NCBI GenBank assembly: GCA_965243835.1 | Contig: OZ251578.1 | Coordinates: 1,760,303 to 1,824,302 of the forward strand | Source of the DNA: Candidatus Spongiisociaceae bacterium | GTDB lineage: Bacteria; Actinomycetota; Acidimicrobiia; Spongiisociales; Spongiisociaceae | DNA: 64,000 bases | Direction: 5' to 3' | Shown: piece by piece, positions 3,937 to 63,122 of the stretch | How positions within the stretch are numbered: the first letter of the stretch is position 1 | Layout: each line of letters begins with the position of its first letter | Notes under the pieces: generated by a model | The model's input: only the letters and a program-made list of their open reading frames with translations | The model's database searches: none | What the model was told of the DNA's origin: nothing | Position numbers and translations under genes: made by a program

Positions 3937-3938
3937 TA

Positions 3939-5801
3939 CTACTCCTCAAAAAATCTTATGGAAAAAGTTTTATCTGTGACAGGTTCCCTGGTAAAAATTT
4001 CTATTTCCCGGCGTTCGCCTGGTTCCGCATCGGGCAAGGAAAATAAATTGTCATCTACAACTTGCAGCGATTCGCCTCCTACGCTGGCTTTCCTAATACC
4101 CATAGGATACTTCGTCCCATCCTCACCCACCGACAACATTTCTATCTTGGTTGGAGTAGTTTCGGGTTGCTCAAAAGCAACAATAACCGAATGTGCATCA
4201 CTTGATCCTTTTCTAAAACGAACTCCCACAAAACTTTGGGGCGTGGCTGTGGCTTGCCGCTTTTCACCTTTCTTGCCCTTTTCCTGTCCCAGTCTATAAG
4301 TACTTGTGTCACCATTACCCGGAGTTTCAGTCGGTTGTTTATCCCGTTTTTTGGATTTTGTCTTTTTGGGTCTCCATGGTGCTCTAAGACTCTGAACAGG
4401 GTCTGTAACGATTGGATCGCCTTGGTTATCGGATTGATCCCGTCCTGTATCTTGGGATTCATCGCCCTCAATAGGAAGAAACTCCGCGAGCTCGTCGACG
4501 CTTTCTGAATCTGAGCCGGGATCGGGCTCTACAAAGTCCTTAATCACCTGATAACACCACCTGCCTATTTCATCAAACAACCCCTTGGCCTTTTTGCGCA
4601 ATTTTTCATCGCTAATATTGTCTATGCTTATTTGATCGTGCCTCGGAGATTCTGCCTGCCTCAACAGGGCTTCCCCTTTAGACTTGCATTCTATGATAGC
4701 GGTAAACCCCCACCAATGAGTAGGAAGCATAGCTAACTTAGGGAATATATATTTCCGGTCGGTTGTGATAAGCATACCAGCATCTCGCACTAATGCTATT
4801 TTCTTGTTACGAGTTTCCTTATCTACTTCAATACGAATTGATATTTCTCCTACATCATCCGCAGTAAAACGATCCACCGGTGCTTCTAAAGAAACTCGTA
4901 TATAATTCCGAACCATTTTATCTTGGATATCCTGTAAATAGTGCTTGTATGTCTTCACATTTATTTTACTATCGCCTACATTTACTTCCAATCCGCCATG
5001 TATAATGGCATGAAAATAATTACTCAGAACAATATCTATACCCCGTTTTTCCCATTCCTCTAACCCATCAGTAAAAGAATATCCAGGTATGTGGATAGCT
5101 GTACCAGGTTTCTTTAATTTTAGGTCAACGGGGACTTTATCGTTCTTAAGGGAATCGAATCTCTTCCCAAGATATCCAACCCTTTTGTATGGAGTACCGC
5201 TTTTGCCTTCGTGAGATACTAATATGGCCTTCCCCATAAAGCGTTGTCGAAGATGTCCGTTCTCCAAAAAGGCGGTGTTATACAATACTGTTCGTAAGGG
5301 AGTAGCAACAAAAGAGGCGAATTTTCCTATACCAAAAGAACCGGCGGCGTCTTTTTGCGGTTTGTTTGTCAGCCCCTCGCCCTTAGTAAGAGTTTCCCAA
5401 AATGTCGGTCGGTTATTATTCTTTATGTCCGTAGCGCCGGTTGTATTACTATCCGTTATACACAAGGATTCAATTGGGCTACCCCCCCCCCCCAATAAAC
5501 CCTTTGCTTTTTCAAAACCGGGGAGATATTTTTCTTCATTGTGGGGAGAATCTATCGCATACTGAATATGCCGCGCCAAACTATCTGTCGCCAACAAAAC
5601 GCCGTCTAACATCTTGTGCTGAAAATTGACTACCACGGGACCGGTGCCGTCCGGGGCTTCGGCATCCAAAGAGTTCTGAATAGCCTCCCTGATGATGGAC
5701 GTTTCGCGGTCGCCGGTAAAATGGGCCATGCCGGGATGGGCCGGCCCCTCGATAGCACCGGCCTGGTTCTCTTCGAACTTCCATTTGAGGTTTTGGCTCA
5801 T
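3939..5801 (-). CDS. GHKL-superfamily (histidine-kinase/MORC-like) ATPase domain protein, about 620 aa; first gene of the operon
   Basis: N box REAIQNSLDA and G box GSFGIGKFASF of Bergerat-fold ATPases. Start assigned to ATG at 5801 (MSQNLKWKF); an alternative start is at 5840. Contains an in-frame G12 tract. Confidence 0.65.
   Translation of the reverse strand: MSQNLKWKFEENQAGAIEGPAHPGMAHFTGDRETSIIREAIQNSLDAEAPDGTGPVVVNFQHKMLDGVLLATDSLARHIQYAIDSPHNEEKYLPGFEKAKGLLGGGGSPIESLCITDSNTTGATDIKNNNRPTFWETLTKGEGLTNKPQKDAAGSFGIGKFASFVATPLRTVLYNTAFLENGHLRQRFMGKAILVSHEGKSGTPYKRVGYLGKRFDSLKNDKVPVDLKLKKPGTAIHIPGYSFTDGLEEWEKRGIDIVLSNYFHAIIHGGLEVNVGDSKINVKTYKHYLQDIQDKMVRNYIRVSLEAPVDRFTADDVGEISIRIEVDKETRNKKIALVRDAGMLITTDRKYIFPKLAMLPTHWWGFTAIIECKSKGEALLRQAESPRHDQISIDNISDEKLRKKAKGLFDEIGRWCYQVIKDFVEPDPGSDSESVDELAEFLPIEGDESQDTGRDQSDNQGDPIVTDPVQSLRAPWRPKKTKSKKRDKQPTETPGNGDTSTYRLGQEKGKKGEKRQATATPQSFVGVRFRKGSSDAHSVIVAFEQPETTPTKIEMLSVGEDGTKYPMGIRKASVGGESLQVVDDNLFSLPDAEPGERREIEIFTREPVTDKTFSIRFFEE
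5482..5493 (-). repeat. homopolymeric tract, C12 on + strand = G12 in the coding strand of the GHKL ATPase gene (encodes GGGG; currently in frame)
   Basis: 12 consecutive C at 5482-5493 inside an otherwise AT-rich gene. Confidence 0.9.
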
Positions 5802-5866
5802 AGCGGGCCCTATATTACACTGGTCGGGCGGGGAAGGCAAATCCGCCGTCCCGCCGAGGAGGACTG

Positions 5867-6856
5867 ATGACCAAATTCGCTTATTTCTGCGGCCATGAGC
5901 AGTGGCACCCGGAGCAACTGGTGGAGCATGCGGTGCGGGCCGAGCAGGCCGGGTTCGACATGCTGGTGGTGTCGGAGCACTTTCACCCCTGGGTGGACGA
6001 CGCCTCGGCCTCCGGCTTCGCCTACGCCACCATCGCCGCCATGGCCCAGGCCACCGAGCGGGTGGAGTTCACCACCGGGGTGACCACCCCCCTGTGGCGA
6101 TTCCATCCCGCCTTGGTCGCCCAGGCGGCCGCCACCCTGGACCGGCTGAGCGGCGGACGGTTCCGCCTGGGAGTGGGCACCGGCGAGAACATCAACGAAG
6201 GTCCGCTCGGATACCGCTTCCCCAAGTATGCGGAACGGGCCGCCCGAATGGACGAGGCCCTGCAAATAATGCGGCGGATGCTGGATGGGGAGAAACTCAC
6301 CTTCGAGGGCGAATATTACGTAACCGACAGGGCCAAACTCTACTCCCCTCCCCTGTCCCGGGTGCCGATCCTGATGGCGGCGGGCGGCCCCAAGTCGGCC
6401 CGGCTGGCCGGTCGGCGGGCGGATGGGGTGATCGTGTCGGTGAAAGACCCGGCGGACGCCATGGAGCGGGTAATCGGCCCCGTCCGGGAGGAGGCCGCCG
6501 CCCACGGCCGCCCCGCCCCCACCGTGCTCACCTCCCGGTGGGCGATCCTGGCCGGAGACGATGACGAGGCGTGGCAAGCGTTGTTTTCCTGGCGTGGCCT
6601 GCGGGCCCCGGGACGTCTGGAGGCGGTGGATCCGATGACCCTGCGGGAGCGGGCCGACGAGTTGCCCCGCTCCGAGGTGCTGGGCCGCTACGCCCGCACC
6701 GCCAACGCCGCCGACATCATCGACGTCTACACGCCGCTACTCAAAGACATCGACGCCGATGTGATAACCATTCAGATGGCCGCCGTCGACCAGGAAGCCC
6801 TCATCGATCTGCTGGGCGCCGAAGTGCTGCCCGCCCTACGCGCCGCCGCCTCGTAA
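5867..6856 (+). CDS. LLM-class F420-dependent oxidoreductase (luciferase-like monooxygenase family)
   Basis: Luciferase-like TIM-barrel motifs (FDMLVVSEHF, RFRLGVGTGE) typical of F420-dependent G6PD-like LLM enzymes. Confidence 0.75.
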   Translation: MTKFAYFCGHEQWHPEQLVEHAVRAEQAGFDMLVVSEHFHPWVDDASASGFAYATIAAMAQATERVEFTTGVTTPLWRFHPALVAQAAATLDRLSGGRFRLGVGTGENINEGPLGYRFPKYAERAARMDEALQIMRRMLDGEKLTFEGEYYVTDRAKLYSPPLSRVPILMAAGGPKSARLAGRRADGVIVSVKDPADAMERVIGPVREEAAAHGRPAPTVLTSRWAILAGDDDEAWQALFSWRGLRAPGRLEAVDPMTLRERADELPRSEVLGRYARTANAADIIDVYTPLLKDIDADVITIQMAAVDQEALIDLLGAEVLPALRAAAS

Positions 6857-9000
6857 ACCCGCCCGGAGATAAGCCCCGATCCCCCCGCACTCCCCAAAAA
6901 CGACCCCCTTGAATTTGCCGCCCACCTGAATTAAACTGAAAAGGCGGAGCAAAACTGAGGGCGGGCGGGTGGGGGGTGGGCGGGACCCCGCCTTCCGAAA
7001 AATTTTTCCGAGAACGCGAAAAAAATACCTATTTTCCCCAATATCTCCGTCAGGGGAACGCCCACCCGCGCTGGCGCCTCCCCCGGCCCCCGTCTTTGTC
7101 ACACCACCGGATTAAGGTAGGTAACCATGATGACATACGACACCCAACTAGCCCATCAACTCCTCCGAGCGGGCGCCGACGACCCGCACGCCGAGTCCGC
7201 CCGCAACAAGAGAAAGCCACCCGCTTCCTAATAACCCCGCCCGAGAAGAAGCACCGCTCCCCCGCACTCCCCAAAACGACCCCCTTGAATTTGTCACACT
7301 AGGCCATTAAAATTAAAGGCGGAGCAAAACTGGGGGCGGGCGGGTCCCCGCCTTCCGAAAATTATTTCCGAGAACGCGAAAAAAATACTTATTCTCCCCA
7401 ATATTTTCCGTCCGAGGAACGCCCACCCGCGCAGTGCCGTCCCTGCCTCCGTCTTTGACACCCCCGGATTAAGGTAGGCAACCATGACATACAACACCCA
7501 ACTAACCCACCAACTCCTCCGAGCGGGCACCGGCGACCCGCACGCCGCGTTCCACCCCCAACCAGAGGAAGCCACCCGCTTCCTAATAACCCCGCCCGAT
7601 GAGAAACACCGCTCCCCCCACACTCCCCAAAAACGACCCCCTTGAATTTGTCACACTCGGCCATTAAAATTAAAGACGGAGCAAAACTGGGGGCGGGCGG
7701 GCGGGGGGTGGGCGGGTCCCCGCCTTCCGAAAAATTTTTCCGAGAACGCGAAAAAAATACTTATATTTATTTCCGTCAGGGGAAACGCCCGCCGCGCCGG
7801 GTCCCGCGCCTTGGCCCCCGTCTTTGTCACACCACCGGATCAAGGTAGGCAACCATGACATACAACACCCAACTAACCCACCAACTCCTCCGAGCGGGCG
7901 CCGACGACCCGCACGCCGAGTTCCACCCGCAACAAGAGAAAGCCACCCGCTTCCTAATAACCCCACCCGAGGAGAAACACCGCTCCCCCCACACTCCCCA
8001 AAACGACCCCCTTGAATTTACCGCCCGCCTGAATTAAACTGAAAAGGCGGAGCAAAACTGGGGGCGGGCGGGACCCCGCCTTCCGAAAAATTTTTCCGAG
8101 AACGCGAAAAAAATACCTATTTCCCCCAATATCTCCGTCAGAGAAACGCCCACCCGCGCTGGCACCTCCCCCGGCCCCCGTCTTTGTCACACCACCGGAT
8201 CAAGGTAGGCAACCATGACATACGACACCCAACTAACCCATCAACTGCTCCAAGCGGGCGCCAGCGACCCGCACGCCGAGTTCCACCCGCAACAAGAGAA
8301 AGCCACCCGCTTCCTAATAACCCCACCCGAGGAGAAACACCGCTCCCCCCACACTCCCCAAAAACGACCCCCTTGAATTTGTCACACTCGGCCATTAAAT
8401 TAAAAAGGCGGAGCAAAACTGGGGGCGGGCGGGCGGGGGGTGGGCGGGTCCCCGCCCTCCGAAAATTTTTTTCCGAGAACGCGAAAAAAATACTTATTTT
8501 TCCCAATATTTCCGTCAGGGGAACGCCTGCCGCGCCGGGTCCCGCGCCTTGACCGCCATCTTTGTCACACCACCGGATCAAGGTAGGCAACCACAACATA
8601 CGACACCCAACTAGCCCATCAACTCCTCCGAGCGGGCACCAACGACCCGCACGCCGCGTTCCACCCGCAACAGGAGAAAGCCACCCGCTTCCTAATAACC
8701 CCACCCGAGGAGAAACACCGCTCCCCCCACACTCCCCAAAAACGACCCCCTTGAATTTGTCACACTCGGCCATTAAATTAAAAAGGCGGAGCAAAACTGG
8801 GGGCGGGCGGGCGGGGGGTGGGCGGGTCCCCGCCCTCCGAAAATTTTTTTCCGAGAACGCGAAAAAAATACTTATTTTTCCCAATATTTCCGTCAGGGGA
8901 ACGCCTGCCGCGCCGGGTCCCGCGCCTTGACCGCCATCTTTGTCACACCACCGGATTAAGGTAGGTAACCATGATGACATACGACACCCAACTAGCCCAT
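6857..9000 (+). repeat. tandem array A: about 5.8 direct copies of a 355-380-bp cassette. Each copy holds a promoter-like element, a G-rich leader, an A5T5 palindrome, an RBS, and the start codon plus about 30 codons of the downstream helicase gene
   Basis: Motif cactccccaaaa(a)cgacccccttgaatttg recurs at about 6887, 7263, 7621, 7991, 8351 and 8731. ATGACATAC start-like segments recur at 7127, 7484, 7855, 8215 and (ATG lost) 8590; the real start is at 8971. Two unit subtypes alternate 1,2,2,1,2,2, implying a higher-order duplication of about 1.1 kb. Copies differ by several percent. Confidence 0.9.
8751..8779 (+). promoter_or_regulatory. sigma70-like promoter candidate (TTGAAT-N17-TAAATT) of the last cassette, about 190 nt upstream of the helicase start; equivalent hexamers are in every cassette
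   Basis: -35 TTGAAT at 8751-8756, 17-nt spacer, -10 TAAATT at 8774-8779. The same architecture (TTGAAT-N17-TAAAAT) is at 7642-7670 and in the other units. Confidence 0.4.
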
Positions 9001-11067
9001 CAACTGCTCCGGGCGGGGGCCGGCGACCCGCGCGCCGGGTTCCGCCCCCAACAGGAGGAGGCCATTCGTTCCCTGGTCGGGGGCCGGGCCCCGAACCGGC
9101 TGTTGCTGGTTCAGAAAACCGGATGGGGCAAAAGCTTCGTCTACTTCATCGCCACCAAGCTCCTGCGCCGACAGGGGAAGGGGCCGGTCCTGCTCATTTC
9201 GCCCCTGTTGGCGTTGATGCGCAACCAGATCGCGATGGCGGAGCGTTTGGGAGTGGCGGCCGCCGCCATCCACTCCGGCAACAAACCGGAATGGAAGAGC
9301 GTGGTCGAGCGACTGTCCCGGAACGAAATCGACATTCTGCTGATCTCGCCCGAACGGTTGGCCAATCAAAAATTTAGGGAAGACGTGTATGCGCCCCACC
9401 TAAGCCAACCAGGTATGTGGGTGGTGGACGAAGCCCACTGCATATCGGACTGGGGGCATGACTTCCGACCGGATTACCGGCGGATCGAGGGCCTGGTCCG
9501 CGGCCTGCCCCCCAATGTTCCGTTGCTGGCCACCACCGCCACCGCCAATGACCGGGTGGTGGACGACCTAGAGCAAATACTGGGGCCGGATCTGCGAATT
9601 ATGCGGGGCGACCTGGACCGGCCGTCCCTGCGTCTGCAAACCATCGCCATGCCCTCCCCCCGGGATCGCTTGGCCTGGTTGGCGGAGAATGTTCCGCAAC
9701 TGCCCGGCAACGGCGTGATTTACACCTTGACCGTCCGGGATGCGAAGCGGGTGGCCCGGTGGTTGCAAAGTTGCGGAGTGGATGTCCGCGCCTACACCGG
9801 CTCCACCGACCCGGCGGAAAGGCCGGTTCTGGAAAATGCCCTGCTGGACAATCGGCTGAAAGCCTTGGCGGCCACCTCCGCCTTGGGCATGGGTTTCGAC
9901 AAACCGGATTTGGGGTTCGTCATTCACTATCAGGCCCCCGGATCGGTGATCGCCTACTACCAGCAGGTGGGCCGGGCGGGGCGCGGCATCGGCGAGGCCC
10001 GCGGTGTGCTGTTGAGCGGCGTCGAGGACCAGGACATCATCGATTACTTCCGCGAAAACGCCTTCCCGACCCGGGCGGAAGTGAAGGAAATGCTGGCCGC
10101 TCTTAGGAGAGCGAAGGACGGGCTGTCGTTCTACGACCTGGAAACCAGGGTCAACCTCAACAGCTACCGCTTGCGCCAAACCCTGAAATTGATGGAGTTG
10201 GAGACCCCGGCTCCGTTGGCCCGGCAGGATTCGGTCTATCAACTGACCCCGCATCGTCTGGGAGCGGGCTTCTGGGAGCGCGTGGAACGTCTCAACCGAC
10301 TGCGCCGGGAGGAGCAGGCTGAAATGCGGGAATACGTCGGGCTTGCATCGGGGCATATGAACTTTCTCATCAAGGCCCTCAACGGCTCCCCCGCCGCCGG
10401 CGATGACCCGCCGACCCTGCCGCCCCTTCCCACCACCATTTCCGGAAAACACCGGGTGGCCGCCGAGGATTTCCAAAAACGCGACTGGTATAGCATCGCG
10501 CCGCGTAAAAAATGGCCGAGGGGCGGCCTCCCCCGACTCGGCGTCCGCGGCCCCATCCCAGAAGACCGCAAATACCAACGGGGACGGGCCCTTAGTTTGT
10601 GGGGATTCGGCGCTCTCGGTCGGCTGGTAAAACAGGGAAAATACCAAGACGCCCGCTTCCCGGATCAATTGGTGGAAGATTGCCGGCGAATGTTCCGCGA
10701 CTGGAACCCGCAACCAACGCCGCGCTGGGTCGCCTGCGTGCCTTCACACAGCCATCCCGACCTGGTACCCGATTTCGCCCGGCGGCTGGCGGACGCCCTG
10801 GGTCTCCCCTTCCGCTCCGTACTGGAAAAAACCGGCAAAAACCGTCCCGCCCAAAAAGTTATGAACAACAGCAGGATGAGGGCCGACAACGCGGACGGAG
10901 CGTTCCGGGTAAACGACCGCCTGATGGGCCCGGAATACGGGGAACCGGTACTGCTGGTGGATGACGTTGTGAATTCAAGATGGACGATGACCGTGTGCGC
11001 CTGGCTGTTGCTGACGCAGGGAAGCGGCGAGGTGTTTCCGTTGGCCTTGGCGCAGGCGGGGGACTAA
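8971..11067 (+). CDS. RecQ-family DNA helicase fused to a C-terminal ComFC/GntX-like phosphoribosyltransferase (PRTase) domain
   Basis: RecQ motifs: PQQEEAI, TGWGKSF (Walker A), DEAHCISDWGHDFRPDY, LATTATA, YQQVGRAGRGIG. C-terminal about 130 aa carries ComFC-like motifs (NADGAFRV ... VLLVDDVVNS), characteristic of type-I PRTase/ComF proteins. Confidence 0.8.
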   Translation: MMTYDTQLAHQLLRAGAGDPRAGFRPQQEEAIRSLVGGRAPNRLLLVQKTGWGKSFVYFIATKLLRRQGKGPVLLISPLLALMRNQIAMAERLGVAAAAIHSGNKPEWKSVVERLSRNEIDILLISPERLANQKFREDVYAPHLSQPGMWVVDEAHCISDWGHDFRPDYRRIEGLVRGLPPNVPLLATTATANDRVVDDLEQILGPDLRIMRGDLDRPSLRLQTIAMPSPRDRLAWLAENVPQLPGNGVIYTLTVRDAKRVARWLQSCGVDVRAYTGSTDPAERPVLENALLDNRLKALAATSALGMGFDKPDLGFVIHYQAPGSVIAYYQQVGRAGRGIGEARGVLLSGVEDQDIIDYFRENAFPTRAEVKEMLAALRRAKDGLSFYDLETRVNLNSYRLRQTLKLMELETPAPLARQDSVYQLTPHRLGAGFWERVERLNRLRREEQAEMREYVGLASGHMNFLIKALNGSPAAGDDPPTLPPLPTTISGKHRVAAEDFQKRDWYSIAPRKKWPRGGLPRLGVRGPIPEDRKYQRGRALSLWGFGALGRLVKQGKYQDARFPDQLVEDCRRMFRDWNPQPTPRWVACVPSHSHPDLVPDFARRLADALGLPFRSVLEKTGKNRPAQKVMNNSRMRADNADGAFRVNDRLMGPEYGEPVLLVDDVVNSRWTMTVCAWLLLTQGSGEVFPLALAQAGD

Positions 11068-12125
11068 TGACCTGGCCGCTTCTGCCCAATACACAGGCGA
11101 TTCTGCTTTTGACCGCGCCCCTGCTGGCGGGAGGGGAGGGCGACGTAGCCGAACGGTTAAACTTGCGGGGATACCGAAAACTGGAAGAACATCTGCGCGG
11201 TCGGGGGCGCGATCTAGCCGACCTGTTGCTGGAGGACCCGGAGGAGGTTCTGGGGGAAAGCCCGCCCTGCGACATCGGGAGAATCAAGGACCTGCTACGG
11301 AGGGGAGGGCGTCTGGCGGCGGCCGTCGACCATTGGAGCACGCGCGCCATCTGGGTGATCAGCCGCTTCGACGAGGAATACCCGCGCCGCTTCCGCACTC
11401 GCCTCGCCGGCTCGGCCCCTCCTCTGCTGTACGGGTGCGGGGACCGGTCGCTCCTCAACCGGGGGGGATTGGCGGTGGTGGGGCCGCGCCAAGCGGACGA
11501 AGACGCCCTGAAATTCGCCCAGTGGACGGGAGGCTTGACCGCCCGGGCCGGGTTTCCTTTGATTTCCGGCGGGGCGCGGGGTGTGGACCGGGCGGCTATG
11601 ACCGGGGCCATGGAAGCGGGCGGGCAGGCGGTGGGGGTGCTGGCGGGTAAACTGGAAAAAGAAATAATGACCCGCGACCGGCGGGATTGGATTCTGGAGG
11701 AGCAGATGTTGATGGTCTCCCCCTACGACCCCGGGGCCGGTTTTCACCGCGGGACTGCTATGGGACGCAACAAGTTGATCTACAACCTGGCCGACGCCGC
11801 CCTGGCGGTGGAAGCGGACCCCAAACGGGGCGGAACCCGCGCCGGGGCGATGAACCAACTGCAGGCCAACCGCAAACAACCCGACCGACAGGTTCCCATA
11901 TACGTACGGGACATCCCCAGCCCCGGCCTGGACTCCCTGCGGGAAAACGGAGCGCAAACCTGGCCCGACCCGGAAACAGCCGACGAACTAAAAAACATCC
12001 TGGACAGCGCAACGGTATTTGACTCTCCGGACCACTCCCAACCTCGCCCACCTGTCATCCCGGCTGATGAGCTATTTCCCGAAACCAGTCAACAGCAACC
12101 ATTGCCCCTCGGTGCCGGAGGGTAA
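11067..12125 (+). CDS. dprA: DprA/Smf-family protein (DNA-processing protein A; SLOG/Rossmann fold), translationally coupled to the helicase gene
   Basis: Start ATG overlaps helicase stop (TAATG at 11065-11069). DprA SAM-like N-domain (EYPRRF..APPLLYGCGD) and Rossmann core (LAVVGPRQA, ISGGARGVDRAAMTGAMEAGGQAVGVLAGKL, SPYDPGAGFHRGTAMGRNKLIYNLADAALAVEA). Confidence 0.7.
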   Translation: MTWPLLPNTQAILLLTAPLLAGGEGDVAERLNLRGYRKLEEHLRGRGRDLADLLLEDPEEVLGESPPCDIGRIKDLLRRGGRLAAAVDHWSTRAIWVISRFDEEYPRRFRTRLAGSAPPLLYGCGDRSLLNRGGLAVVGPRQADEDALKFAQWTGGLTARAGFPLISGGARGVDRAAMTGAMEAGGQAVGVLAGKLEKEIMTRDRRDWILEEQMLMVSPYDPGAGFHRGTAMGRNKLIYNLADAALAVEADPKRGGTRAGAMNQLQANRKQPDRQVPIYVRDIPSPGLDSLRENGAQTWPDPETADELKNILDSATVFDSPDHSQPRPPVIPADELFPETSQQQPLPLGAGG

Positions 12126-12560
12126 CTACTCCTCCGCATCATCAATATTGTTAGGGTTCATAGACTCCGCCAACTGCTCTACTTGGTTTATCAATAATTC
12201 AATCTCGGGAACAGTAGGTACCAAATCATATTCGTGATGGTGACAGGCCCGACTTAGGGCTACCCAAGCGGAGTGGGCATCTTCGGATGTCACAGTATCA
12301 ACTGCAACCCTACCGTCTCGGGCTAATTGCTTAAGACAAGCAAGTTGCGTAAACCGGCTTGTATTCTTCATATAGCGATAATAGTAATGGTCATTCCAAA
12401 GTCTGTCCAGTGTCGCTTCAAGAACTTGGCGAGTCAGCAAAGCCGCCGCCCGATGCCATTCGCCTCGCGGCCCATCAGTATGGTTGAGTAAACCCCGAGC
12501 GAGGTTTAGTAGGTCAAGGGTCATAACGACGTAATCTTTCGGCCAAACTTTGACAATCAT
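12126..12560 (-). CDS. small His-rich hypothetical protein (144 aa), downstream partner of the Rad50/SMC-like ATPase
   Basis: AT-rich ORF overlapping the upstream gene by 47 nt; no recognizable motif. Confidence 0.45.
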   Translation of the reverse strand: MIVKVWPKDYVVMTLDLLNLARGLLNHTDGPRGEWHRAAALLTRQVLEATLDRLWNDHYYYRYMKNTSRFTQLACLKQLARDGRVAVDTVTSEDAHSAWVALSRACHHHEYDLVPTVPEIELLINQVEQLAESMNPNNIDDAEE

Positions 12561-20159: not shown

Positions 20160-21300
20160 TATGCGCCGTCATGGGAAACCGGCCCCCGGCCCGTTGCGAC
20201 CGACCCCCGAAACCCGACCCGACCGGAAAAATTTCGCGGACGAAACCACCCGCCCGCCCCCCTCCCTCCCGCCCTTAATATACCCAAAAAATCACAACCA
20301 AACAAGAGGGTCTTTTCCCGAGAACGACGAAACACCAGGTCAAAGACACAATTAACGCTAAAAAATCTTACGCGAAGCCGAACGGACGGAACAATCCCGA
20401 CAACGGGGCCGCGGCGAAGGCATCTCGGCGGCACCCCGATTGCTTCCGCCCAAACCGGGCATCCCGACAATGGGAGCGCAGGAGCACCCCGGCATAGAGG
20501 GGCGAAGGCGTTATAACCCAATCACCAAAACGCGAATCGTCCCAACAACCCCAAGTCGCCGGCCAGCGGGAACGATGACCATCCCCAGCGGGAAACACTG
20601 CGCGCCGTCCCCGGGTAACCGGCCCTGCCCCTGTTGCGGCCAACCCGCAGAACAACCCGACCGAAAAAATTTTCGCGGACGAAACCTCCCACCCGCCCGC
20701 CCCCCTCCCTCCCGCCCTTAATATACCCAACATTCTGAAACTAAACAAGGGGGTCTTTTCGCGAGAACGACGAAACACCAGGTCAAAGGCACAATTGACG
20801 CTAAAAAATCTTACGCGAAACCGAACGGACGGAACAATCCCGACAACGGGGGCGCGGCGAAGGCATCTCGGCGGCACCCCGATTGCTTCCGCCCAAACCG
20901 GGCAACCCGACAACGGGCGACCGCGCACCGGAGCACCGGAGCGGCCCGGATAGAGGCGAGGCGTTGTAACCCAATCGCCAAACGCGAATCGTCCCGTCCC
21001 AACAACCCCAAGTCGCCGGCCAGCGGGAAACAATGCGCGCCGTCCCCGGTTAACCGGCCCTGCCCCTGTTGCGGCCAACCCGCAGAACAACCCGCCGAAA
21101 AATTTTCGCGGACGAAACCGCCCACCCGCCCGCCCCCCTCCCTCCCGCCCTTAATATACCCAACATTCTGAAACTAAACAAGGGGGTCTTTTCGCGAGGA
21201 TCGCGAAATGCCGGGTCAAACGCATAATTTGTGCTTAATGAATTTTTCGCGAGGTCGGATGCGGGTCAAACGGGCGACGGGGGCGGCGGGACGGCCTGTG
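20160..21300 (-). repeat. tandem array B: about 2.6 copies of a 431-445-bp unit between the MFS gene and tRNA-Val. Each unit carries, on the minus strand, the same promoter/G-rich/A-T-palindrome core found in array A
   Basis: ccctccctcccgcccttaatatacc recurs at about 20262, 20702 and 21137. The reverse complement of the unit aligns to the array A core (gacccccttg ... taWaWt ... gggggcgggcgggtggg ... cgaaaa(a)tttttcg). Confidence 0.85.
20277..20305 (-). promoter_or_regulatory. sigma70-like promoter candidate (TTGTTT-N17-TATATT, minus strand) in the MFS-proximal unit, reading toward the MFS transporter gene
   Basis: rc of 20300-20305 = TTGTTT, 17-nt spacer, rc of 20277-20282 = TATATT. The same arrangement is in the other units. 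Confidence 0.4.
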
Positions 21301-21322: not shown

Positions 21323-21396
21323 GGGCGTTTAGCTCAGTCAGGGAGAGCGCTTCCCTTACAAGGAAGAGGTCGGCGGTTCGAACCCGTCAACGCCCA
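21323..21396 (+). tRNA. tRNA-Val (anticodon TAC)
   Basis: Manual cloverleaf folding: acceptor GGGCGTT/AACGCCC, D-arm GCTC-AGTCAGGGA-GAGC, anticodon stem CTTCC/GGAAG with loop CTTACAA, T-arm GGCGG-TTCGAAC-CCGTC, discriminator A; CCA not encoded. Confidence 0.85.
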
Positions 21397-21499
21397 CTCT
21401 TTCCCTCGTCCGCGTTCGCCGGTCCGCGCCGGCGGGTCCGGTTGCGGGGGGAGCTGGGGAAACGCATGAAATAGAAACTTCTTTAGAAGGAGTCGTCCG

Positions 21500-24779: not shown

Positions 24780-25900
24780 CTACCCCCTGCGACCGCCGCC
24801 AGCGACGCTCGCCGCCCCGGCCGACTTGGGGGGTTGTCCGCCGACGGCATTAAACCCGGCCACCGGACCCTCCCCGACATCCACCCGCCGCCCCCGACCG
24901 ACGAGAGCCTGACAAATAGCCTTCGGTCCAGGCGGCGAACACCCGACCGAAAGTGAAACCGGTTCCCGGAACCGGGCAGGCCCGCCCCGACCCGCAACCT
25001 CCAAAAACAACCCATCGTCGCCCCCACCCCCGCGCAACCGGCCCACGGACGCCGAAAACGACGAAACCGACCGCGAACGCCATCCGACAAGACATCCCGC
25101 AACGAAATTAAACACCGCGCACTCCCCCGGCCAAACCCGCGCCCCGACGACCGGACCCTCCCCGACGCCCACCCATAACACCTGCCGCCCCCGGCCCGAG
25201 CAGGAAGCGCCTCGCAACGAAACAGGTCGCCGGTGGCCCCGAACACCGCCGACAAATGACCTTCCACCCATCCCTACACCCACCGCCGGAAACATCCCCG
25301 CCAACGGCCAAGCCCGGCAAAGACCGGACCCCGGCCGCCGGGTCCTCCCCGACATCCACCCGCCGCCGACGACCGACGAGAGCCTGACAAACACCCTCCG
25401 GCCCGGGCGGCGAACAACCGACCGCAAGCGAAACCGGTTCCCGGAACAGACAGGCCCACCCCGCCCCGACCCGCAACCTCCAAAAACAAACCATCGTCGC
25501 CCCCGCCCCCGCGCAACCAGCCAACGGGCCGACAACGAAGGCCGAAACCGACCGCGAACGCCATCCGACAAGACATCCCGCAACGACATTAAACACCGCG
25601 CACTCCCCCGGCCAAACCCGCAAGACCCGCACCCCGACCCACCGGACGCTCCCCGACGCCCGCCGCCCCCGGCCCGAGCAAGAAACGCCTCGGGGCACCC
25701 GAGCGGCGAACACCCGACCGAAAGCGAAACCGGTTCCCGGAACAGACAAGGCCCGCCCCGACCCGACCCGCAACCTCCAGAAACAGTCCGTTGCCGCCCC
25801 CGCCCCTGCGCAACCGGCCAACGGATGCCATAAGCGAAGGCCGAAACCGACTGCGACCGCTGTCCGATAAAAGGCCTCGCAACGAAATTAAACACCGCGC
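24780..25900 (-). repeat. tandem array D: degenerate tandem copies (units about 280-500 bp) of the pgi-3'-end / intergenic / zwf-5'-end junction
   Basis: Segments resembling the last about 200 nt of pgi (cgacgagagcctgaYaa ... gaaaccggttcccggaac) recur at about 24860, 25340 and 25640 (plus the copy in the 3' part of ORF 25888..26472). A copy of the zwf start region (aacaggtcgccggtggccccgaacaccg) is at about 25210-25270. cgcaacgaaattaaacaccgcgc recurs at 25092, 25591 and 25872. Confidence 0.8.
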
Positions 25901-26472
25901 GCTCCGCCGGCCAAGCCTGATAAGGTCCCCGCGGCGGTCACCGGATCCTCCCCTGCATACGCCCGCAATGCCCGCCGTTCCCGAACGAGGAGAGCCTGAT
26001 AATCGCCTCCGGCCGGGGCGGAGTCGCTTCCGTTATCCTCCGTCCTACGCTCCCCGTCTTGAATCAGCCAGGCGATCTGTTCTGCGTTCAAAGTAGGCGG
26101 AGCCAACTGCGAGGCAAACGATTTCCAAGGATGCTTGCCCGGATTTTTGTTGGGCACGTTCTTCACGAAGGTCAGTTGCAGATGCCAGCCCGGTTCCAAC
26201 CCGGAGCGGATGCAACGTTCCACTTCGGTGCGCAGCGCCTTCTTCTCCAAGCTGATCCTCCGGTAGGGGCCGTGGCCGCCTTCGCTCTGGTTCGGAACCG
26301 TGGGATCGTAAATCTGAACCAAACCGACCGGCTTCCCGGCGGCGGCAAGAGCGCCGCTCTCCAGGTTGATGAAGGTCACAACGCCTACCACCGTAAAGCC
26401 GGGCTCCGGCCACTTGACGCAACGGCCCCGCAAAACGCCCCGCGCGCCTTCTGCCAAATTGAGGTGCGTCAT
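25888..26472 (-). CDS. hypothetical protein (194 aa) whose C-terminal about 45 aa is a diverged duplicate of the PGI C-terminus (chimeric ORF)
   Basis: C-terminus APAGGDYQALLVRERRALRAYAGEDPVTAAGTLSGLAGGARGV parallels the PGI C-terminus AQAGGDYQALIGRGRRVLRVDVGEDPAAGVRALLDLARGGA. N-terminal 150 aa unrecognized. Confidence 0.45.
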   Translation of the reverse strand: MTHLNLAEGARGVLRGRCVKWPEPGFTVVGVVTFINLESGALAAAGKPVGLVQIYDPTVPNQSEGGHGPYRRISLEKKALRTEVERCIRSGLEPGWHLQLTFVKNVPNKNPGKHPWKSFASQLAPPTLNAEQIAWLIQDGERRTEDNGSDSAPAGGDYQALLVRERRALRAYAGEDPVTAAGTLSGLAGGARGV

Positions 26473-26539
26473 TGCCTTTTCTTCTTTCTCCTCCGCCGCC
26501 CGCCCGATTTGGGGGGGTCCACCGACGGCGCCGACGGCA

Positions 26540-28188
26540 TTAAGCGCCGCCCCGGGCCAAGTCCAGCAAGGCCCGCACCCCGGCCGCCGGGTCCTCCCCG
26601 ACGTCCACCCGCAACACCCGCCGTCCCCGGCCGATGAGGGCCTGGTAGTCGCCTCCGGCCTGGGCGGCGATCAACCGACCGAAAGTGAAATCGGTTTCCG
26701 GAACGGGCAGGTCCGGGCCGCCCCGGTCCACGATCTGCAGAAACATCCCGTTGTCGGCCCCGCCCTTGTGCAACTGGCCGGTGGAATGCAAAAAACGGGG
26801 GCCGAAGCCGACGGTGACCGCCGTCCGGTGGGCGTCCCGCAGGGCGCGGCGCAGTTCCGCCAGGAGCGGGGAGGCCGGGCCGTCCATCGGCAGGTAAGCC
26901 TGGACGGCCAGGTAATCGCCGGGGCGGAGGCCGGCCAGCCATTCCCCCCAGGCGGCGGCCAAAAGCGGGGGGCGGGCGGCGTCCGTCGCCTCCGGCAACG
27001 GTGGCCCCTCCCCGGACATGGCCCGGTTGGCCAAGTCTTTGGCCACTTGCACGTCCGGCTGGTCGAACGGGTTGATCCCCAACACCGCCCCGGCGGCGGC
27101 CGTCGCCATCTCGCTCCGGTACAACTCCCCTCCCAAGTCATAGGGGTCGTCCGCCGTGATGCGCACAATGGGATGGCCGACGGCCTGCAGGGCTTCCAAA
27201 GCGGCCGGGACGCCGGCCGGGTCGTCGTCGGCCAACGCCAGGTGAATGAACAGCCGGTCCGGGCCGTAGGAGTCGGGACCGCCTACCGGTTCGTCGGTCA
27301 CCGGAACCAAACCGGTTCCCCGTTTGCCGGTGCTTTCCGCCAGCAACTGCTCCGCCCACGCTCCGTAGGCGGCCAGGGAGGGGGAGGTCAGGAAAGTGAT
27401 CTTGTCCCGGCCGGCCCGGGCGGCCTCCCCCATCACCGCCCCCAGTTTCAGGCCCGGATTGTCCGGCGGGGGACGGTGCGGGCCGCATTCTTCCATCATC
27501 TCCGCCGCCCCGGACAGCAGACGGGCGGCGTCCATTCCCAGCAGGGCGGCCGGAACCAGCCCGAAGGCGGTCAGGGCCGAATAGCGCCCGCCCACCTCGG
27601 GCGGAGCCCGGAACACCCGGCGAAACCCCCGCTCTTCGGCCAGGGATTCCAAACCGGAACCGGGATCGGTTATCGCGGCGAACCGGCTCCCCGGCTGGGC
27701 CGCAACCCGTCCGACCTGCTCCCAGAAGTACCGGAACAGGGACAGGGTTTCCAGGGTGCCCCCCGATTTGGAGGACACCAAAAAGAGGGCGCGCTCCGGA
27801 TCCAGGCGGGCCCCGGCCTCCCGCACCGCCGCCGGGTGGGTGCTGTCCAAAACCGTCACATCCGGATAACCGGGAGCGGACCCGAATATTTCCCGAAACA
27901 CTTCCGGGGCCAGGCTGGAGCCGCCCATCCCCAACAGGACCACCCGGTCGCACCATGGGCGAACCTCCTCGGCGAAGGCCCGCCACTCCGGCAGGGTTGC
28001 GGCGGCTACGGCCGGGGCCCGCAACCAGCCCAACCGGTCGGTCAGTTCGGGGACGGGCTCCGCCGACCACAGGGCGTGGTCGCCTTCCCACAGCCGGGTT
28101 CCGAAATCGGCCCGCTCCCAAGCCCGCAGGCGCTCTGCGACCGGCTCGGCCAAATCCGCCAACGCATAGGAAACGGTCGCGCTCATAA
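26540..28188 (-). CDS. pgi: glucose-6-phosphate isomerase
   Basis: PGI motifs (GMGGSSLAPEV, SKSGGTLET, GGRYSALTAFGL, bidomain length about 549 aa). Start set to ATG at 28188 (MSATVSYALADL); the longer ORF-track version runs into repeat array C. Confidence 0.85.
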
Positions 28189-28189
28189 C

Positions 28190-30188
28190 GTTAATGCTCC
28201 ATTCATAAGGGGGCGTTTGCTCCTGCTTTCCCGTTTTCGCACCGGGACCTACCCCGGACTTTACCGGCTGATTATGCCACCCCCGGCGGGCGGCGAACCG
28301 GCGCGGCGCGGTATCCGCGCACCGCCGCCCTTTGCCAGCCATAAAATCCACCGGGCCGGTAACGCCGCCGCATCGCAGAACCCGCACCGGATTAACAAAA
28401 GCCCGCCCGCCCCCGCCGGGCGAATCGGGGCCGGCCAGCTCCCGGTAACGGAACAAACTCTCCCTGACCGTCAAGGCCGACACCGGCGCGCGGCCAGCGA
28501 GCAACCCCCGCCCGGACAGCGAAACCAGGCTACGCGACGTTACGCAACCACCAAGGCGTCCCCATCAACGCGCATAGCCCCGGGCAGAGTCACATAAACA
28601 GTGGCGCAAGCGGGAAAATCCACCGAACCGGTAAAACCGCCGCATCCAAAACCCGCACCGAACTAACAAAAACGCACCGCCCCTCGGCGGGCGAAATCAG
28701 GACCGCACCGCTCCCCCGACAACCCAAACAAACCCTCCCCAACCGGCCACGGCCGACACCAGCGCACGGCTTACGAGTAGGGACCAGCGGGCAACGAACC
28801 CGATTGTACGGACTTACACAACCACCAAGGCATCCACATCAACGCGCATAGCCCCGGGCAAGGTCACCGTACACAGTGGTGCGAGCGGGGAAATCCACCG
28901 GACCGGTAAAACCGCCGCATCCAAAACCCGCACCTAACTAACAAAAACGCACCGCCCCTCGGCGGGCGAATCGGGGCCAGCCGGGCTCCCCGACAACCGG
29001 AACAAACCCTCCCCAACCGGCCAACGCCAACACCGGAGCACGGCCAGCACGCAACCCCCGGCCGGACAGCGAAACCAGGCTACGCGACGTTACGCAACCA
29101 CCAAGGCATCCCCATCAATACGCATCACCCCGGACAAGGTCACGTACACAGTGGTGCGAGCGGGGAAATCCACCGGACCGGTAAAACCGCCGCATCCAAA
29201 ACCCGCACCTAACTAACAAAAACGCACCGCCCCTCGGCGGGCGAATCGGGGCCAGCCGGGCTCCCCGACAACCGGAACAAACCCTCCCCAACCGGCCAAC
29301 GCCAACACCGGAGCACGGCCAGCACGCAACCCCCGGCCGGACAGCGAAACCAGGCTACGCGACGTTACGCAACCACCAAGGCATCCCCATCAATACGCAT
29401 CACCCCGGACAAGGTCACGTACACAGTGTGCGAGCGGGGAAAATCCACCGAACCGGTAAAACCACCGCATCCAAAACCCGCACCGAACTAACAAAAACGC
29501 ACCGCCCCTCGGCGGGCGAATCGGGGCCAGCCGGGCTCCCCGACAACCGGAACAAACCCTCCCCAACCGGCCAACGCCAACACCGGAGCACGGCCAGCAC
29601 GCAACCCCCGGCCGGACAGCGAAACCAGGCTACGCGACGTTACGCAACCACCAAGGCATCCCCATCAACGCGCATAGACCCGGGCAAGGTCACCGTACAC
29701 AGTGGTGCGAGCGGGGGAAATCCACCGAACCGGTAAAACCACCGCATCCAAAACCCGCACCGAACTAACAAAAACGCACCGCCCCTCGGCGGGCGAATCG
29801 GGGCCAGCCGGGCTCCCCGACAACCGGAACAAACCCTCCCCAACCGGCCAACGCCAACACCGGAGCACGGCCAGCACGCAACCCCCGGCCGGACAGCGAA
29901 ACCAGGCTACGCGACGTTACGCAACCACCAAGGCGTCCACTTCAATACGCATCGCCCCGGACAGGGTCACGTACACAGTGTGCGAGCGGGGGAAATCCAC
30001 CGGACCGGTAAAACCGCCGCATCCAAAACCCGCACCGGATAACAAAAGCGCACCGCCCCTCGGCGGGCGAATCGGGGCCGGCCGGCTCCCCGACAACCGG
30101 AACAAACCCTCCCGACCGGCCACGGCCGACACCGGCGCGCGGCCGGCGGGCAACCCACGGCGGGGCGGCTAACCCGGGTTGCGCGGCC
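28190..30188 (-). repeat. tandem array C: 7 decayed direct copies (about 275 bp each) of an internally deleted ridA gene, between the ridA stop and the pgi start
   Basis: ttacgcaaccaccaagg recurs at 28540, 28813, 29090, 29365, 29640, 29916 and 30189 (the genuine ridA 3' end), with periods of 273-277 bp. Units retain ridA-like 3' (TVYVTLPGAMRIEVDALVVA-like) and 5' segments. The units at 29090 and 29365 are near-identical. Confidence 0.9.
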
Positions 30189-30566: not shown

Positions 30567-30594
30567 GGGAATCGCCTTTCTCTGGGATGGTCGT

Positions 30595-63121: not shown

Positions 63122-63122
63122 A

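What the first reader, a model, noticed from the sequence alone, without database searches (positions are those of the whole stretch)
6857..9000. Six tandem copies of a promoter-leader-start cassette, including the first 30 codons of the downstream helicase gene
Each roughly 360-bp unit contains TTGAAT-N17-TAAAAT-like hexamers, a G-rich leader, an A5T5 palindrome, an AAGGTAGG RBS and an ATGACATAC start followed by about 30 codons homologous to the real N-terminus (MTYDTQLAHQLLRAGA.DP). Only the last copy continues into the gene. The intermediate copies therefore encode roughly 60-aa decoy peptides, and one (about 8590) has lost its ATG. Two unit subtypes alternate 1,2,2,1,2,2, indicating a secondary duplication of a three-unit block of about 1.1 kb. 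Copies differ by several percent, so this is not an assembly collapse or expansion of identical repeats. Possible roles include promoter amplification, transcriptional or translational decoying, or a recombination substrate for copy-number variation of expression.
Basis: seen in the sequence. Interest (0 to 1): 0.75.

Follow-up and report, generated by a model that had tools for sequence, protein, structure and literature searches.

The report
Decaying tandem duplications upstream of PsyrTA
The six repeats are real, but they look like one of at least four strain-variable tandem duplications across gene boundaries in this genome, whose spare copies are decaying under an odd one-strand mutation bias, rather than a purpose-built promoter or decoy device.

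Summary
Window 6853-9075 carries six head-to-tail units of 355-383 bp. Each has TTGAAT-N17-TAAAnT hexamers, a G-run with hairpin, an A/T tract, AAGGTAGG and the first ~31 codons of the downstream gene.

That gene is PsyrT (RecQ-like helicase plus PRTase toxin), followed by its DprA-like partner PsyrA, a known toxin-antitoxin and anti-phage pair.

Seven syntenic relatives give a series:
- Four have a 120-122 bp gap with no module.
- One has a single module and no duplication.
- One has four units.
- The window has six.

All internal joints share one junction, so a single illegitimate duplication was later expanded and homogenised. Four of the eight internal gene fragments in the two strains have lost the start codon or the reading frame, so decoy peptides are unlikely.

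Three further arrays in the same 64 kb have the same anatomy: upstream of tRNA-Val, between pgi and zwf, and downstream of a RidA-like gene. The process therefore looks generic and not specific to PsyrTA. Promoter multiplication remains a possible, untested side effect.

Unexpectedly, the decayed copies in the three polarised arrays show one-strand transition hypermutation. G>A hit 72 of 180 sites against C>T at 3 of 199. This is absent from flanking genes and from other intergenic DNA, and I could not explain it.

The parts
5867..6856 (+). Upstream gene: F420-dependent LLM-class oxidoreductase. Its stop codon marks the left edge of the duplicated segment.
   Evidence: Pfam Bac_luciferase E 1.3e-59. 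NCBIfam TIGR03557 224.9 bits, above the 210.4 cut-off. Syntenic in all relatives.
6853..7228 (+). Unit 1 (376 bp, spacer type A). Hexamers 6909-6937, G-run 6955-6984, hairpin with A/T tract 6978-7028, AAGGTAGG 7114, pseudo-start 7127/7130. The psyrT fragment carries a 1-nt deletion, giving a 33-aa ORF at 7130-7231.
7229..7583 (+). Unit 2 (355 bp, spacer type B). Hexamers 7285-7313 (TTGAAT-17-TAAAAT), G-run shortened by 15 nt at 7330-7344, AAGGTAGG 7471, 53-aa pseudo-ORF 7484-7645.
7584..7954 (+). Unit 3 (371 bp, type B). Hexamers 7642-7670, G-run 7687-7716, AAGGTAGG 7842, 60-aa pseudo-ORF 7855-8037 whose tail is in a different frame because of a 1-nt deletion.
7955..8314 (+). Unit 4 (360 bp, type A). 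Hexamers 8012-8040, short G-run 8058-8072, AAGGTAGG 8202, 53-aa pseudo-ORF 8215-8376.
   Evidence: Closest unit is U1, with 26 mismatches.
8315..8692 (+). Unit 5 (378 bp, type B'). Hexamers 8373-8401, G-run 8419-8448, AAGGTAGG 8580. The start codon is lost (ACA at 8593).
   Evidence: The upstream part is identical to unit 6.
8693..9075 (+). Unit 6 (type B'), the only copy joined to the rest of the gene. Hexamers 8751-8779, G-run 8797-8826, AAGGTAGG 8958, real start 8971/8974.
8971..11067 (+). psyrT: RecQ-like helicase with a C-terminal PRTase-type domain, the toxin/effector of PsyrTA (RqlH).
   Evidence: PADLOC PsyrT E 2.5e-253, residues 2-696 on profile positions 1-684 of 689. Pfam DEAD and Helicase_C. 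Weak PRTase-type hits to the C-terminus.
11067..12125 (+). psyrA: DprA-like partner (antitoxin, RqlI). The likely start overlaps the psyrT stop codon (TAATG).
   Evidence: PADLOC PsyrA E 1e-97. Pfam DNA_processg_A E 1.8e-33. Sequence at 11065-11069.
20163..21252 (+). Array ii: about 2.5 units of ~437 bp upstream of tRNA-Val (21323-21397). The older units contain a decayed copy of the first ~30 nt of the tRNA gene.
   Evidence: Self-BLAST 84% over 681 bp. Alignment with relatives L007 and L008, which have one copy. tRNA call.
24780..26540 (-). Array iii: about three decayed copies of the pgi 3' end plus the zwf 5' end, inserted between pgi and zwf. These two genes abut in relatives.
   Evidence: Absent in L012. 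Present and collinear at 93% identity in an independent assembly, L010.
28190..30188 (-). Array iv: about seven units of 275 bp. They are decayed partial copies of the RidA-like gene (30189-30611, minus strand) and lie between it and pgi.
   Evidence: TRF 28344-30266, period 275, 7.0 copies. Alignments. Relatives have a RidA-pgi gap of only 128 bp (L011) or 96 bp (L012).

Best explanation
The array is a tandem segmental duplication that spans a gene boundary.

Steps, with their basis:
1. In an ancestor of the window strain and of the L003 strain, one illegitimate recombination joined psyrT at about codon 32 to the stop-codon region of the upstream oxidoreductase gene. This duplicated the whole intergenic region plus the first ~95 bp of psyrT. 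The single origin is shown, because the junction is the same everywhere.
2. The duplicated segment already contained a ~135-bp AT-rich module with sigma-70-like hexamers, a G-run with hairpin and an A/T tract. Shown.
3. Such a duplication leaves one intact copy of each flanking gene, so it is tolerated. Inferred.
4. Unequal exchange and gene conversion between units then changed the copy number (4 in L003, 6 here) and partly homogenised the units. The outcome is shown; the mechanism is inferred.
5. The internal psyrT fragments are pseudogenes that are decaying. Shown.

The same process produced at least three other arrays in this 64-kb window. It is therefore a property of this lineage's genome dynamics and not a device evolved for PsyrTA.

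Each unit still carries promoter-like hexamers at exact 17-nt spacing. The array may therefore incidentally add transcription starts upstream of psyrTA. Each start is followed by a terminator-like hairpin. This was not tested.
For: 1. Series across seven syntenic strains for the gap between the oxidoreductase stop and the psyrT start:
- 120-122 bp without the module in L007, L008, L016 and L018.
- 252 bp with one module and no gene-fragment duplication in L005, confirmed by a second assembly, L006.
- 1407 bp with four units in L003.
- 2114 bp with six units in the window.

2. The junction CTTCC|TAATAAC recurs at all five internal joints of the window and, by the alignment, at all three of L003.

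3. Concerted evolution. All L003 units share strain-specific bases such as CGAACCCC, where all window units have CGACCCCC. The upstream 263 bp of U5 and U6 are identical.

4. Decay of the internal gene fragments. Start codons are lost in W5 and V2, and frames are shifted in W1 and V3. There are 13 G>A sites relative to the conserved real 5' end.

5. Arrays ii, iii and iv share the anatomy (units spanning a gene edge, intact copy at the end). Arrays iii and iv are absent from relatives L011 and L012, and L007/L008 carry a single copy where array ii lies.

6. No Rfam family matches. Folding energies of the leader equal those of shuffled sequence, with z between -0.6 and 1.1.
Against: - Conservation within the unit is uneven. 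TTGAAT, ATTAAA, the 28-nt G-run and CCGAGAACGCGAAAAAAATAC are nearly invariant in all 11 copies across three strains, while the adjacent ~60 bp differ by up to 25-30%.
- Two very different spacer types keep exactly 17 nt between the hexamers. This fits selection on the promoter module in at least some units, although homogenisation from a selected last copy could also produce it.
- The array has persisted since the split of two strains whose flanking genes are 93-96% identical. That is long for a purely neutral tandem repeat.
- Copy numbers come from short-read metagenome assemblies and could be underestimates. U5 and U6 share 263 identical bases.
Confidence: 0.68

Rival explanations
1. Adaptive promoter amplification. 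The array is kept because several copies of a sigma-70-type promoter, and changes in their number by unequal exchange, tune expression of the PsyrTA toxin-antitoxin/defence operon.
For: All six units keep TTGAAT-N17-TAAAnT with exact spacing despite two very different spacers. Two of them pass the consensus scan, against 0.7 expected by chance. Copy number differs between strains. The array lies in a defence island flanked by low-GC islands that carry PDC-M33A-like and LmuB/SMC-like genes.
Against: Four relatives with an intact psyrTA operon lack both the module and the array. Each promoter is followed about 30-60 nt later by a terminator-like hairpin, so upstream starts would have to read through several of them. 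Identical array anatomy is found at three loci where it cannot act as a promoter amplifier. The mutation bias of the copies is opposite to what sense-strand transcription-associated deamination predicts.
Confidence: 0.18
2. The internal copies encode functional short peptides or regulatory upstream ORFs (decoys) derived from the PsyrT N-terminus.
For: Three internal copies keep 53-60 aa ORFs behind AAGGTAGG. The first 12 codons change at only two positions.
Against: Four of the eight internal copies in two strains have lost the start codon or the frame. The ORF tails run into the junction and the -35 hexamer in different frames. The conserved first 12 codons are simply poor in G, which is the base that mutates.
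Confidence: 0.04
3. The array is a repeated non-coding RNA, for example an RNA antitoxin array like ToxI of type III toxin-antitoxin systems, or a tandem small-RNA gene (promoter, about 65-nt G-rich RNA, terminator).
For: Each unit has a promoter-like site followed by a G-rich hairpin and a T-run. Direct repeats immediately precede a toxin gene.
Against: Units are 355-383 bp, not ~36 nt. The toxin is a helicase-PRTase with its own protein partner PsyrA. Relatives lack the repeats. There is no Rfam match, even at E up to 1. Folding is not better than shuffled sequence. The module occurs nowhere else in the sequence held.
Confidence: 0.04
4. Assembly artefact: a single copy expanded by the assembler.
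For: The window probably comes from a metagenome assembly. U5 and U6 share 263 identical bases. Unitig-level assemblies break at the array (L004).
Against: Units differ by 5-16% with unit-specific indels. An independent assembly from another sample and strain has four units with the same junction. Array iii is likewise reproduced in L010.
Confidence: 0.03

Closest known systems
Variable-copy tandem repeats in non-coding regions of Ehrlichia ruminantium (Collins et al. 2005; Frutos et al. 2006; summarised in PMC10710844)
   Same: Long-period tandem units lie in intergenic DNA. Copy number differs between strains through expansion and contraction (PMC10710844). From my own memory of Collins et al., which I could not read here, there are also many arrays per genome and duplicated, truncated gene fragments.
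   Different: E. ruminantium is a small, AT-rich obligate intracellular genome with units of about 150 bp (from memory). Here the genome has ~67% G+C and probably comes from a sponge metagenome. Units are 275-480 bp, and each demonstrably spans a gene edge. I know of no report of one-strand G>A/T>C hypermutation of the spare copies there.
Tandem duplication and amplification by unequal RecA-dependent exchange (classical bacterial gene amplification)
   Same: There is one founding join at short or no homology. Copy number then changes by exchange between units, with homogenisation by conversion.
   Different: Classical amplifications contain whole genes, are near-identical, are unstable and are kept by selection for dosage. 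Here only a gene fragment plus intergenic DNA is repeated. Copies have diverged by 5-16% and have persisted across strain divergence.
PsyrTA / RqlHI toxin-antitoxin and anti-phage system
   Same: The two genes downstream of the array match the PsyrT and PsyrA profiles over their full length and are adjacent. The literature describes a PRTase-containing toxin with a DprA-like antitoxin (bioRxiv 10.1101/2022.05.11.491447; PMC4670107 listed).
   Different: Nothing I read or recall about PsyrTA describes an upstream repeat array. Close relatives of this very operon lack it, so the array is not part of the system.
ToxI-type RNA antitoxin repeats of type III toxin-antitoxin systems (own knowledge)
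   Same: Direct repeats lie immediately upstream of a toxin gene, with a terminator-like element before the gene.
   Different: ToxI repeats are ~36 nt and are processed by an endoribonuclease toxin. Here the units are ~370 bp, contain a pseudogene fragment, and precede a helicase-type toxin that has a protein partner.
Repeat-induced point mutation (RIP) of fungi (own knowledge; papers listed)
   Same: Transition mutations are concentrated in duplicated DNA and inactivate the copies. The changes on a given strand are of one type.
   Different: RIP acts premeiotically in fungi, depends on RID/DIM-2, prefers CpA and hits both members of a duplication. Here the organism is a bacterium, there is no dinucleotide preference, T>C accompanies G>A, the copy in use is spared, and in all three arrays polarised the same chromosomal strand is affected.

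Membership tests
PsyrTA / RqlHI (downstream operon) | The toxin matches PsyrT over its full length: a RecQ-like helicase core plus a C-terminal PRTase-type domain. | tested here: met
   PADLOC PsyrT E 2.5e-253, residues 2-696 on profile positions 1-684 of 689. DEAD and Helicase_C. Weak GntX/PRPP-type hits at residues 603-688. Some close homologues carry PF00156.
PsyrTA / RqlHI (downstream operon) | An adjacent DprA-like partner gene. | tested here: met
   PADLOC PsyrA E 1e-97. Pfam DNA_processg_A E 1.8e-33. The start overlaps the psyrT stop.
PsyrTA / RqlHI (downstream operon) | Toxicity that is neutralised by the partner, and protection against phage. | not testable with these tools
   This needs experiments.
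Tandem promoter array (functional promoter amplification) | Each unit carries a promoter consensus. | tested here: inconclusive
   All six units have TTGAAT-N17-TAAAnT. Only two reach 9 of 12 in the scan. The promoter type used by this organism is unknown.
Tandem promoter array (functional promoter amplification) | Transcription starts at each unit and output scales with copy number. | not testable with these tools
   No expression data were available.
Variable-copy intergenic tandem repeats (Ehrlichia ruminantium type) | Head-to-tail units in non-coding DNA whose number differs between strains. | tested here: met
   No duplication, 4 units or 6 units at the same locus in syntenic strains. Arrays iii and iv are present or absent between strains.
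Variable-copy intergenic tandem repeats (Ehrlichia ruminantium type) | Many such arrays per genome, producing truncated gene fragments. | tested here: met
   Four arrays in 64 kb. They contain fragments of psyrT, tRNA-Val, pgi/zwf and the RidA-like gene.
Type III toxin-antitoxin RNA repeat (ToxI-like) | Short (~36 nt) repeats transcribed and processed into antitoxin RNA, with a ToxN-like endoribonuclease toxin. | tested here: not met
   Units are 355-383 bp. The toxin is PsyrT. There is no RNA family match.
Repeat-induced point mutation (RIP) | Transitions concentrated in duplicated DNA relative to unique DNA. | tested here: met
   G>A at 72 of 180 sites in the spare copies. The G>A:C>T ratio is 72:3 in arrays against 105:80 in flanking genes, Fisher p 2e-11.
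Repeat-induced point mutation (RIP) | CpA preference, and mutation of all copies of the duplication. | tested here: not met
   No neighbour preference. The copy in use is unmutated.

The most novel reading that the evidence does not exclude
This bacterium, probably a marine-sponge symbiont, has a repeat-associated, strand-specific transition hypermutation. Once a segment is tandemly duplicated, the spare copies rapidly acquire C>T and A>G changes on one chromosomal strand. Possible routes are single-strand exposure during slipped or break-induced replication of repeats, or a dedicated deaminase. This would amount to a bacterial counterpart of fungal RIP that inactivates and stabilises duplications. 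The psyrT array would be one visible product of it.
Probability: 0.2. Interest if true: 0.8.

Novelty: new variant of a known kind. Interest (0 to 1): 0.42.

Why it matters
As a regulatory device the array is probably not special. That matters because repeated promoter-plus-start cassettes are easily over-interpreted.

What may matter more is the genome-level pattern. A high-GC bacterium carries about one boundary-spanning tandem array per 16 kb. These arrays turn over between close strains, and their spare copies carry a roughly 20-fold strand-asymmetric transition bias that neither the flanking genes nor other non-coding DNA show.

If that bias reflects a repeat-specific process, these natural arrays would offer a direct way to study how bacteria generate, tolerate and neutralise duplications. 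They would also be a natural record of single-strand DNA damage at repeats.

There is also a practical consequence. Such arrays break short-read assemblies and create spurious ORF calls in metagenome-assembled genomes. Loci L003 and L010 both carry called 'genes' inside arrays.

Tried and rejected
- Exact-protein look-ups of three window proteins found nothing, so the source genome itself is not in the collection.
- A 21-nt unit motif searched in genome contigs and metagenome contigs gave only single matches outside any array context, which I read as chance hits: two in DPANN archaeal MAGs and one in a 1-kb contig.
- Rfam gave no family in the array, either at gathering thresholds over the whole window or at E up to 1 over the array.
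- Folding the putative leader or small RNA of six units, the antisense strand and the downstream leader gave z-scores from -0.6 to +1.1 against shuffles. There is no evidence for a selected RNA structure (one search failed on a length limit).
- BLAST of a unit against the window and all loci found the module nowhere outside this locus, so it is not a dispersed mobile element in the sequence held.
- A resemblance between TTTTCCGAGAACGCGAAA in array i and TTTTCGCGAGGATCGCGAAA upstream of tRNA-Val was followed up. The motif search found only the array ii copies and one weak hit, and none in array i. A broader pattern found nothing. I dropped it.
- Synonymous and non-synonymous counts in the pseudo-ORFs (4-8 synonymous, 5-11 non-synonymous) are not informative. 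The mutation process targets G, which is enriched at third codon positions.
- Polarising changes in the 'old intergenic' part of the units gave ambiguous results (G>A at 6 of 15 sites, C>T at 8 of 29), because that part aligns poorly. I did not use it.
- Transcription-associated deamination was considered as the cause of the bias. It fits arrays iii and iv (minus-strand operon) but predicts the opposite polarity for arrays i and ii. I rejected it as a single cause.
- Reverse-transcription-type hypermutation was rejected for the same reason.
- Collins et al. 2005 could not be read.
Full report
**1. Observation**

Tandem Repeats Finder reports a single array at 6876-9064, with period 378, 5.9 copies, 85% matches and score 2666. 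I cut six units at the recurring junction: 6853-7228, 7229-7583, 7584-7954, 7955-8314, 8315-8692 and 8693-9075. Their alignment has 90% mean column identity.

- TTGAAT, 17 nt, then TAAACT, TAAAAT or TAAATT.
- A G-run, 30 nt in four units and shortened by 15 nt in units 2 and 4.
- The hairpin GGGCGGG(A/T)CCCCGCC.
- An A/T tract followed by the invariant CCGAGAACGCGAAAAAAATAC.
- AAGGTAGG.
- ATGACATAC followed by about 31 codons like the real N-terminus.

Unit 5 has ACA instead of ATG at 8593, as reported.

**2. What lies downstream**

The 698-aa ORF at 8971-11067 matches the PADLOC PsyrT profile end to end (E 2.5e-253). The next gene matches PsyrA (E 1e-97), with Pfam DNA_processg_A. It probably starts at 11067, overlapping the psyrT stop codon.

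PsyrTA, also called RqlHI, is a published toxin-antitoxin pair that also protects against phage. It has a PRTase-containing toxin and a DprA-like antitoxin (bioRxiv 10.1101/2022.05.11.491447).

The operon sits between two low-GC islands. One carries a PDC-M33A-like gene and the other an LmuB/SMC-like ATPase gene. The locus is therefore a defence island. The upstream gene, 5867-6856, is an F420-dependent LLM-class oxidoreductase.

**3. Related strains give the history**

The window's own proteins are not in the collections. PsyrT homologues of 81-93% identity are, and their contigs are fully syntenic.

The gap between the oxidoreductase stop and the psyrT start varies as follows:

| Strain (locus) | PsyrT identity | Gap | Content |
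|---|---|---|---|
| L007, L008, L016, L018 | 81-84% | 120-122 bp | no TTGAAT module, no repeat |
| L005 (confirmed by second assembly L006) | 90% | 252 bp | one module, no duplicated gene fragment |
| L003 | 93% | 1407 bp | four units |
| window | - | 2114 bp | six units |

The joint between units...CGCTTCC|TAATAACCCC..., fuses psyrT near codon 32 to the stop-codon region of the oxidoreductase gene. The five internal joints of the window carry the exact string CTTCCTAATAAC. The three joints of L003 carry the same junction in the alignment, apart from one or two point substitutions just before it. The founding duplication therefore happened once, before these two strains split. I could identify at most 3-4 nt of homology at the breakpoints.

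Later events show in three ways:
- The copy numbers differ (4 against 6).
- Strain-specific bases are shared by all units of a strain.
- The upstream 263 bp of units 5 and 6 are identical while their coding parts differ at 18 positions.

These are the marks of unequal exchange and gene conversion.

Units 1 and 4 are each other's closest relatives, and unit 3 is closest to units 5 and 6. A three-unit block duplication followed by conversion fits this but is not the only possible path. The type-A spacer resembles the single copy of L005 (7-8 mismatches, against 11-12 for type B), so type A is probably the older form.

**4. Are the internal copies functional?**

Across the two strains there are eight internal psyrT fragments. 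Two have lost the start codon (W5 ACA, V2 ACG) and two are frameshifted (W1, V3). The ORF tails read through the junction and stop inside the -35 hexamer, in different frames in different units. Peptide function is unlikely.

No Rfam family matches. The putative leader RNA folds no better than shuffled sequence.

The promoter-like hexamers are well kept. The consensus scan passes two units, against 0.7 expected by chance, and also flags a terminator-like hairpin after four of the promoters at its strongest setting. The long G-run variants fit a G-quadruplex pattern on the plus strand in units 1, 3, 5 and 6 only.

AAGGTAGG could be a ribosome-binding site. Its TAAGGT could alternatively be a TAnnnT -10 box for a near-leaderless mRNA. 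The compact relatives have TATGGT at the same place. I could not decide between these readings.

**5. The array is not alone**

Reading other strongly skewed parts of the window and a self-BLAST revealed three more arrays:

- Array ii (20163-21252): about 2.5 units of ~437 bp upstream of tRNA-Val. The older units include a decayed copy of the first ~30 nt of the tRNA gene. Relatives have one copy.
- Array iii (24780-26540): decayed copies of the pgi 3' end plus the zwf 5' end, inserted between two genes that abut in relative L012. An independent assembly, L010, carries it collinear at 93% identity.
- Array iv (TRF 28344-30266, period 275, 7 copies): decayed partial copies of the RidA-like gene. 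Relatives L011 and L012 have only 128 and 96 bp there.

In all four arrays the unit spans a gene edge. That is the one kind of tandem duplication that leaves both flanking genes intact.

This is why I read array i as a product of a generic duplication process and not as a PsyrTA-specific device. The closest described parallel is the active expansion and contraction of tandem repeats in the non-coding regions of Ehrlichia ruminantium (PMC10710844). I could not read the original paper.

**6. An unexpected mutation pattern**

I polarised changes using relatives that lack the arrays and counted distinct sites on the window plus strand. The spare copies show the following:

| Array | G>A | C>T | T>C | A>G |
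|---|---|---|---|---|
| i (psyrT fragment) | 13/29 | 0/33 | 2/11 | 0/14 |
| iii (pgi 3' copies) | 26/78 | 2/92 | 21/28 | 4/41 |
| iv (RidA copies, well-aligned part) | 33/73 | 1/74 | 7/23 | 6/29 |
| Sum | 72/180 | 3/199 | 30/62 | 10/84 |

Fisher tests give p 9e-24 for G>A against C>T and p 1.5e-6 for T>C against A>G. G>A shows no neighbour preference.

The polarity is the same in the three arrays polarised, although psyrT is on the plus strand and pgi and the RidA-like gene are on the minus strand. Array ii, upstream of the plus-strand tRNA-Val, shows the same direction by eye against L007/L008, but I did not count it. The bias is therefore not tied to the sense strand.

Two controls show that it is specific to the arrays:
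- In about 9.3 kb of flanking genes, polarised substitutions give G>A 105 against C>T 80, a ratio of 1.3:1. Arrays against genes: p 2e-11.
- Non-array intergenic DNA has GC skew -0.04 and AT skew +0.10. The arrays have GC skew -0.12 to -0.34 and AT skew +0.28 to +0.63. Array ii is the weakest, and its measured segment also includes the tRNA gene.

The direction matches the ordinary replication skew of the window, but it is roughly twenty times stronger.

Possible causes are:
- Deamination of C and A on the minus strand while it is single-stranded during slipped, stalled or break-induced replication of repeats.
- Error-prone copying of the plus strand, producing G·T and T·G mispairs.
- A repeat-targeted process.

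Transcription-associated and reverse-transcription models each fit only two of the four arrays. I could not resolve this, and I record it as unexplained.

**7. Verdict**

- Best explanation (confidence about 0.68): a boundary-spanning tandem duplication, expanded and homogenised by recombination, whose internal gene fragments are decaying. It is one of several such arrays in this lineage.
- Main rival (about 0.18): adaptive promoter amplification. It draws support from the strict conservation of the hexamers and their spacing, and from the persistence of the array across strain divergence. Homogenisation from a selected last unit can mimic that.
- Minor rivals: decoy peptides (0.04), an RNA-repeat function (0.04) and an assembly artefact (0.03).

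**8. Provenance**

The relatives come from ENA scaffolds labelled PANK22-1. The nearest named homologues of Pgi are from MAGs labelled Acidimicrobiia or 'bacterium', and those of PsyrT from Chloroflexi. From memory, the study label and those MAG name prefixes suggest marine-sponge metagenomes. This is an inference that I could not verify. The phylum is not resolved.

Noticed in passing
window 20163-21252: A second long-period tandem array (about 2.5 units of ~437 bp, 84% identity) lies directly upstream of tRNA-Val (21323-21397). Tandem Repeats Finder missed it. The older units contain a decayed copy of the first ~30 nt of the tRNA gene. Relatives L007 and L008 have a single copy.
   Followed up: yes
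window 24780-26540: A third array, made of decayed copies of the pgi 3' end plus the zwf 5' end, inserts about 1.76 kb between two genes that abut in relative L012. It is present and collinear (93% identity) in an independent assembly, L010, where spurious ORFs of 194 and 275 aa were called inside it.
   Followed up: yes
window 28190-30266: A fourth array has seven 275-bp units that are decayed partial copies of the RidA-like gene 30189-30611 (minus strand). It lies between that gene and pgi. Relatives L011 and L012 have only 128 and 96 bp there.
   Followed up: yes
arrays at window 6853-9075, 24780-26540 and 28190-30266: The spare copies carry a strongly one-strand transition bias on the plus strand: G>A at 72 of 180 sites against C>T at 3 of 199, and T>C at 30 of 62 against A>G at 10 of 84. 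Flanking genes (G>A:C>T of 1.3:1) and other intergenic DNA do not show it. There is no dinucleotide context. The cause is unexplained.
   Followed up: partly
window 2300-5840 and 12126-14922: Two low-GC islands (37-50% G+C against ~67%) flank the oxidoreductase-psyrTA segment. One carries a 633-aa PDC-M33A-like gene (minus strand). The other carries an 802-aa LmuB/SMC-like ATPase with a 144-aa neighbour. The ATPase island varies in length between relatives (800-927 aa) and is absent in L007 and L018. This looks like a defence island with strain-level turnover.
   Followed up: partly
window 6909-6937 compared with 7285-7313, and 7089-7110: The type-B promoter spacer (TTTGTCACACTCGGCCAT) resembles the segment TTTGTCACACCACCGGAT that lies just upstream of AAGGTAGG in every unit. 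The spacer may have been overwritten by a short templated copy of that segment, or TTGTCACAC may be a binding site.
   Followed up: no
window 57158-57456: A small two-copy direct repeat (~145 bp units, 72% identity) lies in a C-rich stretch (57079-57403, GC skew -0.31). It may be another old array.
   Followed up: no
window 40241-40463: Short-period repeats (periods 18-66, GTCGTC/GTAGTC-rich) were reported by Tandem Repeats Finder. They probably encode an acidic (Asp-rich) repeat if read on the minus strand. I did not examine them.
   Followed up: no
L010 1-55: The first 55 nt of this contig match the RidA-like gene's 5' region (window 30554-30608) in the orientation opposite to the rest of the contig. 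This is probably a graph artefact where the assembly breaks inside array iv.
   Followed up: no
window 63001-64000: G+C drops sharply to 33% at the right end of the window. This may be another foreign island. I did not examine it.
   Followed up: no
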